Positions 2,508 to 6,440 of a stretch of DNA of 45,123 nucleotides are shown here, in pieces. The stretch lies in the UHGV virus genome UHGV-1374414, one strand, 5' to 3'. This DNA comes from a virus. The position numbers and the translations under genes are program-made. Positions within the stretch are counted from its first letter, which is position 1. Each line of letters opens with the position of its first letter. The notes under the pieces were generated by a model that saw nothing but the letters and a program-made list of their open reading frames with translations, searched no databases and had not been told where the DNA came from.

Positions 2508-2524
2508 TTGGTTAATGACCAACG
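2508..2524. promoter_or_regulatory. palindromic operator-like site GTTGGT-N5-ACCAAC
   Basis: Perfect 6-bp inverted arms around taatg, in the leader of the minus-strand promoter. Confidence 0.4.
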
Positions 2525-2553
2525 AAACTACACCCAAAACTGCATGGTGTCAA
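2525..2553 (-). promoter_or_regulatory. sigma70-like promoter for HTH/primase operon (TTGACA-17-TAGTTT on minus strand)
   Basis: Minus strand reads TTGACA ccatgcagttttgggtg TAGTTT about 35 nt upstream of the HTH gene ATG. Confidence 0.45.
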
Positions 2554-2623
2554 ATCCTTTGGTTATTGAAACGGGCGCGCACGCGTGTAATAATAATTCC
2601 CGTCTCATTGTCTCTTATTGGTT

Positions 2624-2657
2624 AGCGCCGTCGCATTTTGCCTCGGCGCTTTTTTTT
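2624..2657 (+). terminator. intrinsic terminator with no upstream plus-strand gene (orphan)
   Basis: agcgccg-loop-cggcgct stem followed by T8 run. Confidence 0.6.
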
Positions 2658-2667
2658 AAATTAGTTG

Positions 2668-2697
2668 TTGACACCCATCCTGCAACCAATCTATCAT
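2668..2697 (+). promoter_or_regulatory. strong sigma70-like early promoter (TTGACA-18-TATCAT)
   Basis: Consensus -35 TTGACA at 2668-2673, -10 TATCAT at 2692-2697; spacer contains GCAACCAAT motif; about 190-nt leader to first plus gene. Confidence 0.6.
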
Positions 2698-2892
2698 TCA
2701 CTCCGTCGACAGGATGCAGGACGCAAACTGGAGAGGGGCAACGCAGGGGCCGGATCGAAGTGTCAGGATTCCCAACCGTGATTATATAACCAGGTCCACT
2801 ACCCGAACGGGAGAACGCGTAACCTGGCGCTATGTTAAGGCCACCGACGAAGTTAACTGCCGACACCTAAATTAACCAATCGGAGATATACC

Positions 2893-3414
2893 ATGTTTGA
2901 GCAAATCGTAAACCTGATCACTCGCGGCGTAGTAGCACTGGAAACCATCGCTAAACATTATGAAACCGTTGGCGCTGCCGTTGGTAAGCAGGAAGACAAG
3001 AAGCCGTCTAAGGCGAAAAAAGAAGTTGTCGAAGATGACGACGATGATGCCGAAGACGAAAAACCGGCTAAATCTAAAAAAGCACCGGCGAAAGGTAAGG
3101 CCAAAAAAGAAGTCGTAGCAGATGACGACGATGATGCCGAAGACGAAGACGAAAAACCGGCGAAAGCTAAAAAAGCACCGGCGAAAGGCAAAGGTAAGAA
3201 AGATGCCGATCCGCTGGCGGAGATGCGCGACGAAATCAAACAGTATGCCGCGATTATCGCTGGTGGAGATGACGACGATGCGAACGACGAATTCGACGAC
3301 CTGCTGGAATCGTTCGAGATCAAATCAATCGCCAAGCTGGAAGATGACGACGTCGAAGACTTCCACAAAGAGCTAAAAGAAATTGTCGAAACCTATTTCG
3401 AACTGGAAGATTAA
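2893..3414 (+). CDS. highly charged acidic/lysine repeat protein (first early gene)
   Basis: 173 aa; SD GGAG 7 nt upstream; repeats of DDDDDAEDE-KPAKSKKAPAKGK; terminator immediately downstream. Confidence 0.8.
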   Translation: MFEQIVNLITRGVVALETIAKHYETVGAAVGKQEDKKPSKAKKEVVEDDDDDAEDEKPAKSKKAPAKGKAKKEVVADDDDDAEDEDEKPAKAKKAPAKGKGKKDADPLAEMRDEIKQYAAIIAGGDDDDANDEFDDLLESFEIKSIAKLEDDDVEDFHKELKEIVETYFELED

Positions 3415-3422
3415 TATATTCC

Positions 3423-3449
3423 GGCCCGCTAATCTGCGGGCCTCTTTTT
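3423..3449 (+). terminator. intrinsic terminator
   Basis: ggcccgc-taatct-gcgggcc hairpin followed by tcttttt. Confidence 0.65.
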
Positions 3450-3462
3450 AGAGGACGAGACA

Positions 3463-3714
3463 ATGGCACGCTTCACGCTAATCGAGGCGGTGGACTCCCG
3501 CGACCAGAGCCCATATTATTGGCTTTTCGAACGCATCGGCTATTTTCAGTCACGCGTTGCCGTAATAGACAAACGCCGCAACACCCCCGCGCAAATTAAG
3601 CGCACCACCTTTATTAATCCCGACTTTTATATTTGGGCGGATTCCAATCTGGAATTTGTTCGCTTCGCAGTTGCATCCGAAGCAAAAACAATCGACCGCT
3701 GGGAGACAAAATAA
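3463..3714 (+). CDS. hypothetical protein
   Basis: 83-aa ORF; SD GAGGA upstream. Confidence 0.55.
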   Translation: MARFTLIEAVDSRDQSPYYWLFERIGYFQSRVAVIDKRRNTPAQIKRTTFINPDFYIWADSNLEFVRFAVASEAKTIDRWETK

Positions 3715-3902
3715 TGACTGTATTCTTTGTTTCATTTCGTTGCCGTATCACTGGCGACGAGCTACCAGAAATAATTAGGCATGAGAACTGGCTTTGCTGT
3801 TGGGGGAAAGCCTGCGACCTGGCTTTGACAATGAACGAAGACGCGAAGCGGGCCAATGTTAAACACGACTATTACATTGCTCAATTTTCAAGGGTGGAAT
3901 AA
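3714..3902 (+). CDS. hypothetical small protein
   Basis: ATG overlaps upstream stop (TAATG); 62 aa, MTVFFVSF...; ORF-track start 3633 lies inside upstream gene. Confidence 0.45.
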   Translation: MTVFFVSFRCRITGDELPEIIRHENWLCCWGKACDLALTMNEDAKRANVKHDYYIAQFSRVE

Positions 3903-5332
3903 TGGCGATTAAACCAAAACGTAAAACGCAATCCGGTAGCAATACGGAACACTCATTACTCGGGCCATCCGGTGCTAAAAAATGGATGGGTTGCCCCGCC
4001 GCCCTGGTGGTAGAACAAGGTATCCCGAACGAATCCGGGCAAGCGGCAATTAACGGTACGAGTATGCACACCGTATCTGAAGTCGTGCTCAACCGCATTA
4101 TCGCCGGTGAGAAGCTGATAACCGCGAAGACGTACAAAGGGTGCTACGTCGAGAACGAAGGCAAGGGACCGGTGAAGGCACACCCGAAAGCACCGAAAGG
4201 CGGCGTACTGGTAAACGACGACATTGTGAAACAGTGCGACGCGTACATCGACCACTGGCGACCGCTCCTCGAAGTGGCGGAGTTTGTTCAGCTTGAGATG
4301 CGCGCCGATCTTACCCGCGTCCTACACTCGGGCTTCGAGATCGACGGCAACCGGGTTAAGACGTTCGGCACTGCCGATATGGTCATGGTCATGAAGAAGA
4401 CCGACGGCACGTACATGCTGATTGTTGGCGACCTGAAGACGGGACGGCATAAGGTCGAGGCGAAAGAAAACAAACAGCTTATGTTGTACGCGCTCGGCCT
4501 GCTGCGCAAGCTGAAAACTATGTACGACATTACAACCGTGCGCCTGGTTATCTTCCAGCCGTATTGCGGCGGGGCGTCGGAGTGGGATATTACAGTGGAA
4601 GCGCTGGAGATATTCGCGAAGTTTGCGTCCAAGCGTGCTATCGCCGCCCTGGAAGCGTACGCCCGCGGCAAAAAGGGACTCACCCGTGCCGACTTCCGAC
4701 CGAGCGTTGATGCGTGTCAGTGGTGCCGATTTGCGGATCAGTGTAGTGCCCGCGCTAAGGCCGCAATCGACACGATGACCCCACCAACGGCAACAGACGA
4801 AGACCTGGGCGACGACGTGAGTATTGCGACAGAGGAAGAATGCGCCAATCACGACCGCAATATGGCCCGCGAAGCCCGCAAAGCGGCACGACGTGAGAAG
4901 CGTGGTAAGAAAGAAGCGGCCCCCGGCGCTATGACCGCCGCGGAACTTCGCAAGGCATATGAAGGTCTTGACGCAATGCGCCAGCACATCAAGGCTATCG
5001 AGTCCGCGGTGTTCAAGGCCGTAATGGCGGGTGATGGCGAATCGCTGGGCCTCAAGATGGTTGCCGGTAAGGAAGGAATCCGCAAGTGGGCGGACGAGAG
5101 CGAAGTGATTGAAATCTTCACGAAGGCCCGGATCAAACGCGATGTGATGTACAAAGAAACATTGCTCAGTCCTACGGATGCCGAGAAGGTACTGAAGGAC
5201 GAGAAGCCGAAAGTGTGGGCGAAGTTGTGTGATAAAATCACGCGCGCACCGGCTAAACCTGTATTAGCGCCCATTGACGACCCGCGCCCTGCGTGGTCTG
5301 AAGCTACCGACGAGGACTTAAGCAATGAATAA
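3902..5332 (+). CDS. PD-(D/E)XK nuclease, Cas4/RecB-like (DUF2800-like) exonuclease
   Basis: 476 aa; N-terminal LLGPSGAKKWMGCPA; GDLKTGRHK and QLMLYA motifs; C-terminal Cys cluster CQWCRFADQC; start overlaps upstream stop. Confidence 0.7.
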   Translation: MAIKPKRKTQSGSNTEHSLLGPSGAKKWMGCPAALVVEQGIPNESGQAAINGTSMHTVSEVVLNRIIAGEKLITAKTYKGCYVENEGKGPVKAHPKAPKGGVLVNDDIVKQCDAYIDHWRPLLEVAEFVQLEMRADLTRVLHSGFEIDGNRVKTFGTADMVMVMKKTDGTYMLIVGDLKTGRHKVEAKENKQLMLYALGLLRKLKTMYDITTVRLVIFQPYCGGASEWDITVEALEIFAKFASKRAIAALEAYARGKKGLTRADFRPSVDACQWCRFADQCSARAKAAIDTMTPPTATDEDLGDDVSIATEEECANHDRNMAREARKAARREKRGKKEAAPGAMTAAELRKAYEGLDAMRQHIKAIESAVFKAVMAGDGESLGLKMVAGKEGIRKWADESEVIEIFTKARIKRDVMYKETLLSPTDAEKVLKDEKPKVWAKLCDKITRAPAKPVLAPIDDPRPAWSEATDEDLSNE

Positions 5333-5592: not shown

Positions 5593-5657
5593 AGCAACCA
5601 AGCCGGACGGGGTGGCTCACAATAACCCCGATACATGTGAAAATGAGGAATTGGAAA

Positions 5658-6440
5658 ATGGCTAAAGTCAACCTGAAAAATGTGCGCGTATGTTTCCTGA
5701 AAATTTGGGAACGTGATACCCCTAAACAGGATGGACAAAAACCGGCATACCGCGCCGTGATTCTTCTTGATAAAGAAGATCCGCAGGTGGACAAAGTGGA
5801 AGCGGCAGCGCGCGCAGTGCTCACCGACAAGCTGAAATCCGAGAAGAATGCCGATAAGTGGATGGACCGCCACTACGCCCAGGATTCTAAGGAATGTGCA
5901 GTTCGCGACGGCGACGAGCGCGATGAAGTAACCGAAGAGTTCGAAGGCATGTTGTACATCAACGCCAAATCGTTCAAACAGCCTAACATCCAAACGTCAC
6001 TGGGCGAGAAGCAGACCGAGCAAGGTCTGACCGTAGAAGGCGACGAGATCGAAGGCCAGGAAATCTATTCCGGTTGCTATTGCAACGTGTCCCTCGATAT
6101 CTGGGCGTGGAACAACACCAACGGCAAGGGACTCGGCGCTGGCTTGCTGGGTTTACGCTTCCGGGATGACGGTGAAGCCTTCGGCGGTGGCGGGTCTTCT
6201 TGCTCCGATGAAGACTTGGGCGACGATGACGAAGATGAAGCACCGCGCAAGTCCAAAAAGTCAAAACGTCGCGATGACGATGATGAAGACGACAAGCCGC
6301 GCAAGTCCAAAAAGTCCAAGCGCCGCGATGACGACGACGATGAGGAAGATGAAAAACCTCGTAAACGTCGTAAGCCACGCGATGACGAAGATGAGGACGA
6401 CGACGAAGACGAAGCGCCACGCAAACGTCGCCGCCGTTAA
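5658..6440 (+). CDS. putative ssDNA-binding protein (DUF2815-like) with charged C-terminal repeat tail
   Basis: SD GAGG about 10 nt upstream of ATG 5658; MAKVNLKNVRVCF... N-terminus; C-terminal repeats of DDDDEDD-KPRKSKKSKRR; gene order nuclease-SSB-polymerase. Confidence 0.6.
   Translation: MAKVNLKNVRVCFLKIWERDTPKQDGQKPAYRAVILLDKEDPQVDKVEAAARAVLTDKLKSEKNADKWMDRHYAQDSKECAVRDGDERDEVTEEFEGMLYINAKSFKQPNIQTSLGEKQTEQGLTVEGDEIEGQEIYSGCYCNVSLDIWAWNNTNGKGLGAGLLGLRFRDDGEAFGGGGSSCSDEDLGDDDEDEAPRKSKKSKRRDDDDEDDKPRKSKKSKRRDDDDDEEDEKPRKRRKPRDDEDEDDDEDEAPRKRRRR

What the first reader, a model, noticed from the sequence alone, without database searches (positions are those of the whole stretch)
2893..3414. 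First early gene encodes an acidic/basic repeat protein: candidate DNA mimic or host-takeover factor
It is the first gene after the strongest consensus promoter (TTGACA-18-TATCAT), with a strong SD and its own terminator. The product contains three blocks of DDDDDAEDE alternating with KPAKSKKAPAKGK. Early-expressed highly acidic phage proteins are often DNA mimics (Ocr/ArdA-like anti-restriction) or injected proteins. The alternating charge blocks are unusual and could also act as a nucleic-acid chaperone.
Basis: partly seen in the sequence, partly recalled or inferred. Interest (0 to 1): 0.6.

Follow-up and report, generated by a model that had tools for sequence, protein, structure and literature searches.

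The report
Conserved acidic lead gene of replication module
The gene is real, but its acidic/basic repeats are only a variable-length floppy spacer between a conserved helix and a conserved acidic three-helix head, in an uncharacterised protein that always heads a widespread phage DNA replication gene cluster rather than resembling any known anti-restriction DNA mimic.

Summary
A 173-aa ORF (2893-3414, +) follows the only 11/12 sigma-70 promoter match in the window. It has a GGAG ribosome-binding site and its own hairpin/T-run terminator, and it contains an 87-93-nt tandem duplication encoding acidic and lysine-rich blocks.

The window is a Dhillonvirus, an E. coli siphovirus. The protein has three parts:
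- an amphipathic N-terminal helix;
- a disordered, charge-blocky spacer, which carries the repeats;
- a confidently predicted, very acidic three-helix bundle (net -21).

Among 103 homologues the spacer varies from 17 to 81 aa with 0, 1 or 2 acidic blocks, while both ends are under strong purifying selection. So the repeats are not the conserved functional surface.

The family (phrog_3127, function unknown) always sits first in the DUF2800-exonuclease / gp2.5-type SSB / PolA module. This holds in Dhillonvirus, Jersey- and Kagunavirus-like phages and distant metagenomic relatives, and probably in Enc34 (ORF3).

There is no sequence or fold match to Ocr, ArdA, Gam or any characterised protein.

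Best reading, at low-to-moderate confidence: an abundant, non-enzymatic, DNA-tethered adaptor of the replication-recombination machinery. A Gam-like decoy for a host nuclease is the main rival. The Ocr-like and injected-protein ideas are not supported.

The parts
2624..2657 (+). Upstream hairpin plus T8 (terminator-like) that insulates the transcription unit from upstream transcription
   Evidence: strand folding gives dG -16.7 kcal/mol, z -3.3. The sequence is read. The built-in scan missed it because the loop exceeds its limit.
2668..2697 (+). Sigma-70-type promoter TTGACA-18-TATCAT
   Evidence: 11/12. It is the only match of 11/12 or better in the whole window. It is conserved in Dhillonvirus loci, and strong TTGACA-17/18-TATAGT sites lie upstream of distant homologues.
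2698..2881 (+). 5' leader of about 195 nt, probably non-coding
   Evidence: No Rfam match above threshold and folding is not better than shuffles (z 0.23). The leader ORF (2714-2875) is out of frame here but fused in frame to the gene in 9 of 15 related loci. That explains the database entries of 202-240 aa, many about 231 aa.
2882..2885 (+). Shine-Dalgarno GGAG, 7 nt before the ATG
   Evidence: Sequence read.
2893..3414 (+). CDS, 173 aa, member of phrog_3127 (unknown function)
   Evidence: E 4.5e-53, full length. 107 homologues. pN/pS is 0.10 for the N-terminal part and 0.06 for the C-terminal part.
2896..2973 (+). N-terminal amphipathic helix (aa 2-27), conserved motif M-[FL]-E/D-x-h-h-x-L-h-x-R-x-V-h-A-x-E-x-I-A
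   Evidence: AF2 predicts a helix at 2-27 with pLDDT about 75. R11, V13, A15, E17 and A20 are invariant across 29 divergent homologues.
2974..3207 (+). Disordered, blocky polyampholyte spacer (aa 28-105) carrying the acidic and lysine-rich repeat blocks
   Evidence: pLDDT about 41. FCR 0.62, NCPR -0.01, kappa 0.45 (z 6.4 against shuffles). Length ranges from 17 to 81 aa among homologues.
3009..3208 (+). Tandem DNA duplication (87-93-nt unit, 2 copies) that generates the repeated protein blocks
   Evidence: TRF score 264. Direct repeats D2 and D3 are 80-92% identical.
3208..3411 (+). Conserved acidic three-helix-bundle domain (aa 106-173; helices 107-124, 128-140, 154-169)
   Evidence: pLDDT above 90. 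Net charge -21. A domain profile finds 43 cluster representatives, all with the domain at the C-terminus. Net charge is -4 to -26 in every representative.
3423..3450 (+). Intrinsic terminator or attenuator directly after the gene, followed by the ribosome-binding site of the next gene (ATG 3463)
   Evidence: Conserved in Dhillonvirus with the loop found in both orientations. Comparable hairpin/T-run sites follow the gene in 8 of 28 distant loci.

Best explanation
The gene encodes an abundant, non-enzymatic accessory protein that heads the DUF2800-exonuclease / gp2.5-type SSB / DNA polymerase A replication-recombination module.

Shown:
- It has three parts: a conserved amphipathic N-terminal helix; a disordered, charge-segregated spacer whose length and number of acidic/basic blocks change freely by tandem duplication and deletion; and a conserved, strongly acidic three-helix bundle.
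- Both ends are under strong purifying selection.
- The gene keeps the same promoter-proximal place in front of the exonuclease, SSB and polymerase genes across Dhillonvirus, Jersey- and Kagunavirus-like phages and distant metagenomic relatives. Enc34 ORF3 has the same place and build, but its homology is weak.

Inferred mechanism:
- The N-terminal helix self-associates or docks, which makes the protein multivalent.
- The lysine-rich blocks give weak, non-specific DNA contact. They resemble histone H1, and distant relatives carry R-G-R-P/K cores like AT-hooks.
- The acidic bundle binds a basic, nucleic-acid-binding surface on a partner from the same module. Candidates are the SSB, whose tail in this lineage is itself a blocky acidic/basic repeat ending in PRKRRRR, the exonuclease, the polymerase or the primase-helicase.
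- The protein would therefore act as a DNA-tethered recruiting or regulating hub.
- The strong promoter plus terminator would give stoichiometric excess over the downstream enzymes.

The repeats tune spacer length and charge patterning. They are not the active surface.
For: Gene and transcription signals.

Architecture:
- AF2 predicts a helix at 2-27, disorder at 28-105 and a three-helix bundle at 107-169 with pLDDT above 90.
- Alignments show conserved ends and an unalignable middle.

The spacer is variable:
- It spans 17-81 aa with 0, 1 or 2 acidic blocks in 103 homologues.
- Variants with no acidic block occur on ~44-kb contigs of full genome length.

Selection: pN/pS is 0.10 for the N-terminal part and 0.06 for the C-terminal part.

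Conserved properties of the family:
- The C-terminal domain is acidic in all representatives (net -4 to -26).
- Spacer charge blockiness exceeds shuffles in 25 of 32 representatives.

Synteny:
- In all 27 distant viral loci that extend far enough downstream, the order is this gene, then DUF2800 exonuclease, Enc34-type SSB and PolA. One further locus ends just after the gene.
- The same order holds in very distant relatives P0151 and P0129.
- Enc34 ORF3 has the same position and the same build, with hhalign E 0.0097 in the expected register.
- The literature already recognises a duf2800-gp2.5-polA module but not this fourth member (PMC8093625).

DNA-contact motifs in distant relatives: KRGRPAK, AKRGRKP and PKRGRPAG.

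SSB tail: alternating acidic/basic blocks with variable copy number in the same lineages, kappa 0.54.

Some relatives carry two tandem copies of the C-terminal domain, as expected for a modular binding unit.
Against: - No partner has been identified. No binding, DNA-contact or oligomerisation data exist.
- Conserved position at the head of an operon is also what a host-directed inhibitor would show; T7 gene 0.3 is the first gene of its early region and lambda gam lies upstream of bet and exo (general knowledge).
- An acidic, DNA-like head combined with DNA-binding motifs could equally be a self-inhibited decoy.
- In the window protein the basic blocks are K-G-K, not canonical R-G-R-P AT-hooks.
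- Spacer blockiness might partly reflect the mutational process (tandem duplication) rather than selection.
- The neighbouring DUF2800 nuclease is dispensable in Bas14 (10.64898/2026.07.14.737667), so a role restricted to that enzyme would not explain the strong conservation.
Confidence: 0.35

Rival explanations
1. Gam- or gp5.9-like decoy. The acidic three-helix head, made multivalent by the N-terminal helix, mimics DNA and blocks a host end-processing nuclease (RecBCD). This would protect the linear, headful-packaged phage DNA and the recombination intermediates made by the adjacent exonuclease and annealing SSB.
For: - The head is strongly acidic (net -21 over 70 aa, pI 4.05), and this is conserved family-wide.
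- The gene is promoter-proximal and separately terminated, which fits a stoichiometric inhibitor needed at once.
- It lies just upstream of an exonuclease plus SSAP pair. This parallels lambda gam-bet-exo, and T7 5.9 lying next to gene 6 (general knowledge; synteny).
- No annotated RecBCD inhibitor appears in the 23-kb part of a Dhillonvirus genome that was read.
- Packaging is reported to be headful (PMC13348001).
Against: - No Pfam hit to Gam, or to any anti-nuclease family that Pfam models.
- No structural match to known DNA mimics.
- A pure decoy has no obvious need for AT-hook- or H1-like DNA-binding segments, or for a long spacer.
- The acidic positions are conserved in character rather than in place.
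Confidence: 0.2
2. Condensate scaffold. The blocky polyampholyte spacer, together with the similarly blocky tail of the phage SSB, drives electrostatic co-condensation on DNA. This would form a membraneless replication compartment.
For: - Spacer FCR 0.62, net charge about 0, kappa 0.45 (z 6.4). SSB tail FCR 0.85, kappa 0.54 (z 9.9).
- Blockiness recurs in 25 of 32 divergent homologues whose spacers cannot be aligned.
- SSB tails in the same lineages have 1-4 acidic/basic blocks.
- The inferred high expression fits a scaffold.
- High-kappa polyampholytes are known to self-associate (established polymer-physics work on charge patterning).
Against: - The evidence is purely compositional.
- Variants without acidic blocks occur on contigs of full genome length.
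- Enc34 and the distant relative L047 have ordinary acidic SSB tails, yet they carry an ORF of the same build (Enc34) or a homologue (L047).
- Blockiness can arise from repeat expansion alone.
Confidence: 0.1
3. One reading: an Ocr/ArdA-type DNA mimic that blocks type I/III restriction or BREX, or another host-takeover factor aimed at a host DNA-binding protein such as H-NS or RNA polymerase.
For: - Acidic (pI 4.44) and the first gene behind the strongest promoter.
- The size is in the range of known mimics.
Against: - No sequence or fold similarity to Ocr or ArdA.
- The acidic repeats are dispensable.
- Strong purifying selection and deep synteny with replication genes are atypical for anti-defence genes.
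- Dhillonvirus phages are reported as comparatively sensitive to type I/II restriction. They also carry their own Dam- and Dcm-like methyltransferases.
- The one anti-defence protein found in the literature searched for this genus (anti-Tmn, ORF35) is a different gene with a beta-sheet domain (PMC11846954).
Confidence: 0.06
4. A virion-associated, injected or prohead-core protein.
For: - One GenBank record labels the homologue 'prohead core protein'.
- A homologue in Salmonella phage MB78 is named '13.88 kDa late protein'.
Against: - The 'prohead core' label comes from automatic Prokka annotation without proteomics.
- The gene lies in the replication module, far from the structural genes, behind a sigma-70 promoter.
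- The basis of the MB78 label could not be traced.
Confidence: 0.02

Closest known systems
Uncharacterised homologues: phrog_3127 (e.g. Jersey_49, TheodorHerzl gp48, eiAU Gp46, MB78 '13.88 kDa late protein') and probably Enc34 ORF3
   Same: Same three-part build, the same acidic C-terminal domain and the same position at the head of the exonuclease-SSB-polymerase module.
   Different: None has an assigned function. Spacer sequences cannot be aligned. Distant members (P0106, P0129, P0151, and Enc34 ORF3 if it is a member) lack the GGDDDD loop and have a different N-terminal helix sequence.
T7 Ocr and plasmid/phage ArdA (DNA-mimic anti-restriction proteins)
   Same: Small, very acidic, expressed from the first gene of an early transcription unit.
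   Different: No sequence or fold similarity. Here the acidity sits in a 65-aa three-helix bundle plus a disordered spacer, not in an elongated DNA-shaped dimer. The gene is a conserved replication-module member.
Lambda Gam and T7 gp5.9 (RecBCD inhibitors encoded beside phage exonuclease/annealase genes)
   Same: Small, helical and acidic, encoded next to a phage exonuclease plus single-strand-annealing protein pair.
   Different: No homology detected. The protein has an additional long polyampholyte spacer with DNA-binding-like motifs. Inhibition is untested.
Acidic C-terminal tails of gp2.5-type and bacterial SSBs (including Enc34 ORF6)
   Same: An acidic element tethered by a disordered segment. 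In those proteins it binds basic DNA-binding clefts and recruits replisome partners (PMC5686142).
   Different: Here the acidic element is a folded bundle on a separate polypeptide. The cognate SSB in this lineage has an unusual alternating acidic/basic tail with a basic end.
HMGA, HMGB and histone-H1-type architectural proteins
   Same: Lysine/proline/alanine-rich or AT-hook-like basic segments combined with an acidic C-terminal part. Distant relatives carry R-G-R-P/K cores.
   Different: There is no homology, and this is a bacterial virus. The window protein has K-G-K rather than R-G-R-P. The acidic part is a folded domain.

Membership tests
phrog_3127 (phage protein family, function unknown) | Full-length match to the family profile | tested here: met
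   E 4.5e-53, residues 1-173 against profile positions 1-178 of 178. Distant homologues P0114, P0119 and P0110 hit the same family.
Lead gene of the duf2800-gp2.5-polA replication/recombination module | Same-strand position directly upstream of the DUF2800 PD-(D/E)XK exonuclease, Enc34-type SSB and family-A DNA polymerase | tested here: met
   Window neighbours are identified. The order is kept in all 27 distant loci that extend far enough downstream, in L046 and L047, and in Jersey. Enc34 ORF3 is a positional equivalent with weak profile similarity.
Ocr (PF08684) / ArdA (PF07275) DNA-mimic anti-restriction proteins | Sequence homology to the family | tested here: not met
   No Pfam hit at E <= 1 for the protein or for 29 homologues. 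A PDB sequence-profile search finds nothing relevant.
Ocr / ArdA DNA-mimic anti-restriction proteins | Fold that mimics the shape and charge of B-form DNA | tested here: not met
Ocr / ArdA DNA-mimic anti-restriction proteins | Very low pI and high density of Asp/Glu | tested here: met
   Whole protein pI 4.44, net -23. C-terminal domain pI 4.05 with 27 acidic residues out of 70.
Ocr / ArdA DNA-mimic anti-restriction proteins | Protects the phage from type I restriction in vivo | not testable with these tools
   Only indirect evidence: BASEL text says Dhillonvirus phages are comparatively sensitive to type I/II restriction systems.
Lambda Gam (PF06064) / T7 gp5.9 host-nuclease inhibitors | Sequence homology to the family | tested here: not met
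   No Pfam hit to the Gam family. gp5.9 was not compared directly.
Lambda Gam / T7 gp5.9 host-nuclease inhibitors | Binds and inhibits RecBCD | not testable with these tools
   Only the analogy of gene neighbourhood is available.
AT-hook / HMGA-like DNA-binding segments | R-G-R-P core flanked by basic residues | tested here: inconclusive
   The core is present in distant relatives: P0138 PKRGRPAG, P0149 KKRGRPAK, P0106 and P0151 AKRGRKP. The window protein has KGKAKK and KGKGKK instead.
Blocky (high-kappa) polyampholyte disordered region | High fraction of charged residues, near-zero net charge and charge segregation beyond chance, with predicted disorder | tested here: met
   FCR 0.62, NCPR -0.014, kappa 0.454 against shuffles 0.121 +/- 0.052, with 0 of 1000 shuffles reaching it. 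pLDDT is about 41 across aa 28-105.

The most novel reading that the evidence does not exclude
This protein and the phage SSB both carry copy-number-variable, charge-segregated acidic/basic disordered regions. They might co-condense electrostatically on phage DNA to build a membraneless replication-recombination compartment in small siphoviruses. The acidic three-helix head and the N-terminal helix would supply specific valency.
Probability: 0.1. Interest if true: 0.75.

Novelty: new variant of a known kind. Interest (0 to 1): 0.42.

Why it matters
The duf2800-gp2.5-polA module is one of the commonest replication-recombination cassettes in tailed phages. Its proteins are already known as triggers of retron defences. 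This work points to a fourth conserved component that has not been recognised in the literature searched: a small acidic protein always encoded first.

Knowing its partner would do several things:
- complete the parts list of this replisome;
- possibly reveal a new class of host-nuclease decoy or replisome adaptor;
- explain the odd alternating-charge tails of the SSBs in these phages.

It also corrects annotation. The 202-240-aa database versions (many about 231 aa) and the labels 'prohead core protein' and '13.88 kDa late protein' look unreliable.

Tried and rejected
- Pfam, NCBIfam and PHROGs scans gave only unknown-function PHROGs. The weak DUF6669 hits (best E 0.017) stay below threshold and vanish in divergent members.
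- A PDB sequence-profile search gave only chance hits to ribosomal protein S20.
- AFDB50 was unavailable.
- A second word-indexed protein search with the domain profile gave no domain fusions.
- Rfam and folding of the 195-nt leader found nothing.
- Anti-Tmn of Dhillonvirus was considered and rejected. It is a different gene (ORF35) with a different predicted structure.
- The labels 'prohead core protein' and '13.88 kDa late protein' were traced to automatic annotation and to an MB78 entry that could not be verified.
- A literature search for BASEL Dhillonvirus locus tags turned up only other genes (the DUF2800 nuclease and the portal) as defence triggers.
- The antisense ORF 2958-3368 is a compositional artefact of the repeat, being serine-rich.
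- An EF-hand-like reading of the GGDDDD loop and a beta-clamp-binding motif in the N-terminal helix were checked by eye and do not fit.

Full report
**What the window is.** The region matches 176 phage genomes at 80-97% nucleotide identity, almost all of them E. coli Dhillonvirus siphoviruses. The neighbouring genes are:
- a divergently transcribed HTH protein, with a helicase beyond it on the minus strand;
- on the plus strand after the target, an 83-aa protein (phrog_4965);
- a DUF2800 PD-(D/E)XK exonuclease;
- an Enc34/gp2.5-type SSB;
- a family-A DNA polymerase.

**Checking the observation.**
- The 173-aa ORF at 2893-3414 exists.
- TTGACA-18-TATCAT lies at 2668-2697 and is the only match of 11/12 or better in the 45-kb window. 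It is about 195 nt upstream of the ATG.
- GGAG lies 7 nt before the ATG.
- A 7-bp all-GC hairpin with a T-run follows the stop codon. It is conserved in most related genomes.
- A second hairpin plus T8 at 2624-2657 lies just upstream of the promoter, so the unit is insulated on both sides.
- The repeat is a genuine tandem duplication of 87-93 nt.
The spacer has two acidic and three basic blocks. The 'third' acidic block (DDDDANDE, aa 126-133) is a loop of the folded C-terminal domain.
- The spacer is electrically neutral (net -1). The acidity comes from the C-terminal domain, net -21.

**Anatomy.** With a 29-sequence alignment, AlphaFold2 predicts three parts:
- a helix at aa 2-27 (pLDDT about 75);
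- disorder at aa 28-105 (pLDDT about 41);
- a three-helix bundle at aa 107-169 (pLDDT above 90).

107 homologues were found. In 103 of them the spacer ranges from 17 to 81 aa with 0, 1 or 2 acidic blocks. The N-terminal helix and the C-terminal domain are nearly invariant. Variants with no acidic block occur on ~44-kb contigs of full genome length (P0082, P0092). pN/pS is 0.10 for the N-terminal 30 codons and 0.06 for the C-terminal 70 codons. The gene is therefore real and constrained at its ends. The repeats are an indel-prone spacer and not the essential surface.

The spacer is not featureless, however. It is a strongly charge-segregated polyampholyte: FCR 0.62, net charge about 0, kappa 0.45 against 0.12 +/- 0.05 for shuffles. 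Charge blockiness beyond chance recurs in 25 of 32 divergent homologues whose spacers cannot be aligned. A basic stretch next to the C-terminal domain is always kept.

**The wider family and its context.**
- A profile of the C-terminal domain, searched against 1.84 billion representatives, found 43 proteins. Nearly all full-length ones are about 115-270 aa, and the small ones have the same helix-spacer-acidic-domain build. A few carry two copies of the domain.
- All representatives have an acidic C-terminal domain, net -4 to -26.
- Related PHROGs (3127, 18562, 408, 7721 and others) are all of unknown function.
- In all 27 distant viral loci that reach far enough downstream, the gene order is this gene, then DUF2800 exonuclease, SSB and PolA. 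In those loci the target is 28-59% identical and PolA about 60-81% identical to the window.
- These loci are Jerseyvirus-, Kagunavirus- and related phages.
- Two much more distant relatives, P0151 and P0129, show the same order.
- Enc34, the reference phage for this SSB family, has ORF3 (124 aa) in the same place and with the same build. Its profile match is weak but in the expected register.
- The literature recognises a duf2800-gp2.5-polA module (PMC8093625) but not this upstream member.
- Strong sigma-70-like promoters precede the gene in most lineages. Hairpin/T-run sites follow it in most Dhillonvirus loci and in 8 of 28 distant loci.

**Comparison with known proteins.**
- There are no hits to Ocr, ArdA, Gam or any characterised family in Pfam, NCBIfam or PDB sequence searches.
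- BFVD returns only uncharacterised phage proteins, plus the MB78 '13.88 kDa late protein', which is the source of a label copied into many records.
- The anti-Tmn protein described for this genus is a different gene.
- BASEL text states that Dhillonvirus phages are comparatively sensitive to type I/II restriction. These phages also carry Dam- and Dcm-like methyltransferases.

**Interpretation.** Deep synteny, purifying selection and the lack of enzyme features point to a stoichiometric accessory protein of the replication-recombination module. I favour a DNA-tethered adaptor, at confidence 0.35:
- The N-terminal helix provides self-association or docking.
- The lysine-rich or AT-hook-like blocks provide weak DNA contact. 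Distant relatives carry KRGRPAK and AKRGRKP cores.
- The acidic bundle binds a basic nucleic-acid-binding surface of a module protein.

The rivals are:
- Gam/gp5.9-like decoy for RecBCD (0.2). This is the main rival, suggested by the neighbourhood with an exonuclease plus annealing-SSB pair and by the expression signals.
- Condensate scaffold acting with the SSB (0.1). The SSB tail in these lineages is also a copy-number-variable acidic/basic block repeat.
- Ocr-like anti-restriction (0.06).
- Virion protein (0.02).

All of these mechanisms are inference. No partner or activity has been shown.

**Verdict.** The feature is real and the repeat is genuine. What stands out instead is a conserved, uncharacterised fourth component of a very common phage replication module.

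Noticed in passing
window 5637-6440 (tail from about 6222 to 6437); loci L002-L047: The gp2.5/Enc34-type SSB ends in alternating acidic/basic blocks, (DDDDEDDKPRKSKKSKRR)n, finishing in PRKRRRR. The classic purely acidic tail is absent. Block number varies from 1 to 4 among Dhillonvirus, Jersey- and Kagunavirus-like loci. Enc34 and a distant relative (L047) have ordinary acidic tails. Kappa is 0.54, z 9.9 against shuffles.
   Followed up: partly
window 2714-2892; loci L001, L002, L004, L006, L010-L012, L014, L015; GeorgBuechner gp48: In 9 of 15 related genomes an upstream leader ORF (MQDANW...) is in frame with the gene, so databases list products of 202-240 aa (many about 231 aa). In the window a 1-nt indel separates the frames. 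All distant homologues start at the MFEQ/MLDK methionine, which is preceded by GGAG. The long versions look like start-site mis-annotations.
   Followed up: partly
window 2515-2657: A 36-aa ORF (MTNETTPKTAWCQILWLLKRARTRVIIIPVSLSLIG), annotated as gp49 in phage GeorgBuechner, lies in the divergent intergenic region. It is followed at once by a strong hairpin plus T8 (dG -16.7, z -3.3). A 10/12 promoter-like site (2566-2594) lies inside it. It could be a tiny gene or a small transcript.
   Followed up: no
window 3423-3442 versus loci L007, L008, L014, L015: The loop of the terminator hairpin after the gene occurs in both orientations among Dhillonviruses (TAATCT versus AGATTA), while the GC stem is unchanged.
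   Followed up: no
window 3463-3714: The 83-aa protein just downstream (phrog_4965, no Pfam or NCBIfam hit) is co-conserved with the target in 19 of the 28 distant loci, at 27-34% identity. It is a candidate functional partner.
   Followed up: partly
window 3902-5332: The DUF2800 nuclease is the orthologue of Bas14_0045. A 2026 preprint reports that protein as an AdnA/RecB-like end-resection nuclease that triggers retron type IX. It tolerates truncation in escape mutants, so it is dispensable in the laboratory.
   Followed up: partly
L001 3971-4084 (Zar3M); L004, L010: Some Dhillonviruses carry an extra insertion of about 130 nt between the target gene and the 83-aa gene, annotated as a 37-aa CDS in Zar3M.
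   Followed up: no
proteins P0110, P0113, P0117, P0140, P0144: Some family members carry two tandem copies of the acidic C-terminal domain. One DUF669 (SSB-like) protein, P0107, carries a similar acidic/basic repeat linker followed by an acidic helical C-terminus.
   Followed up: no
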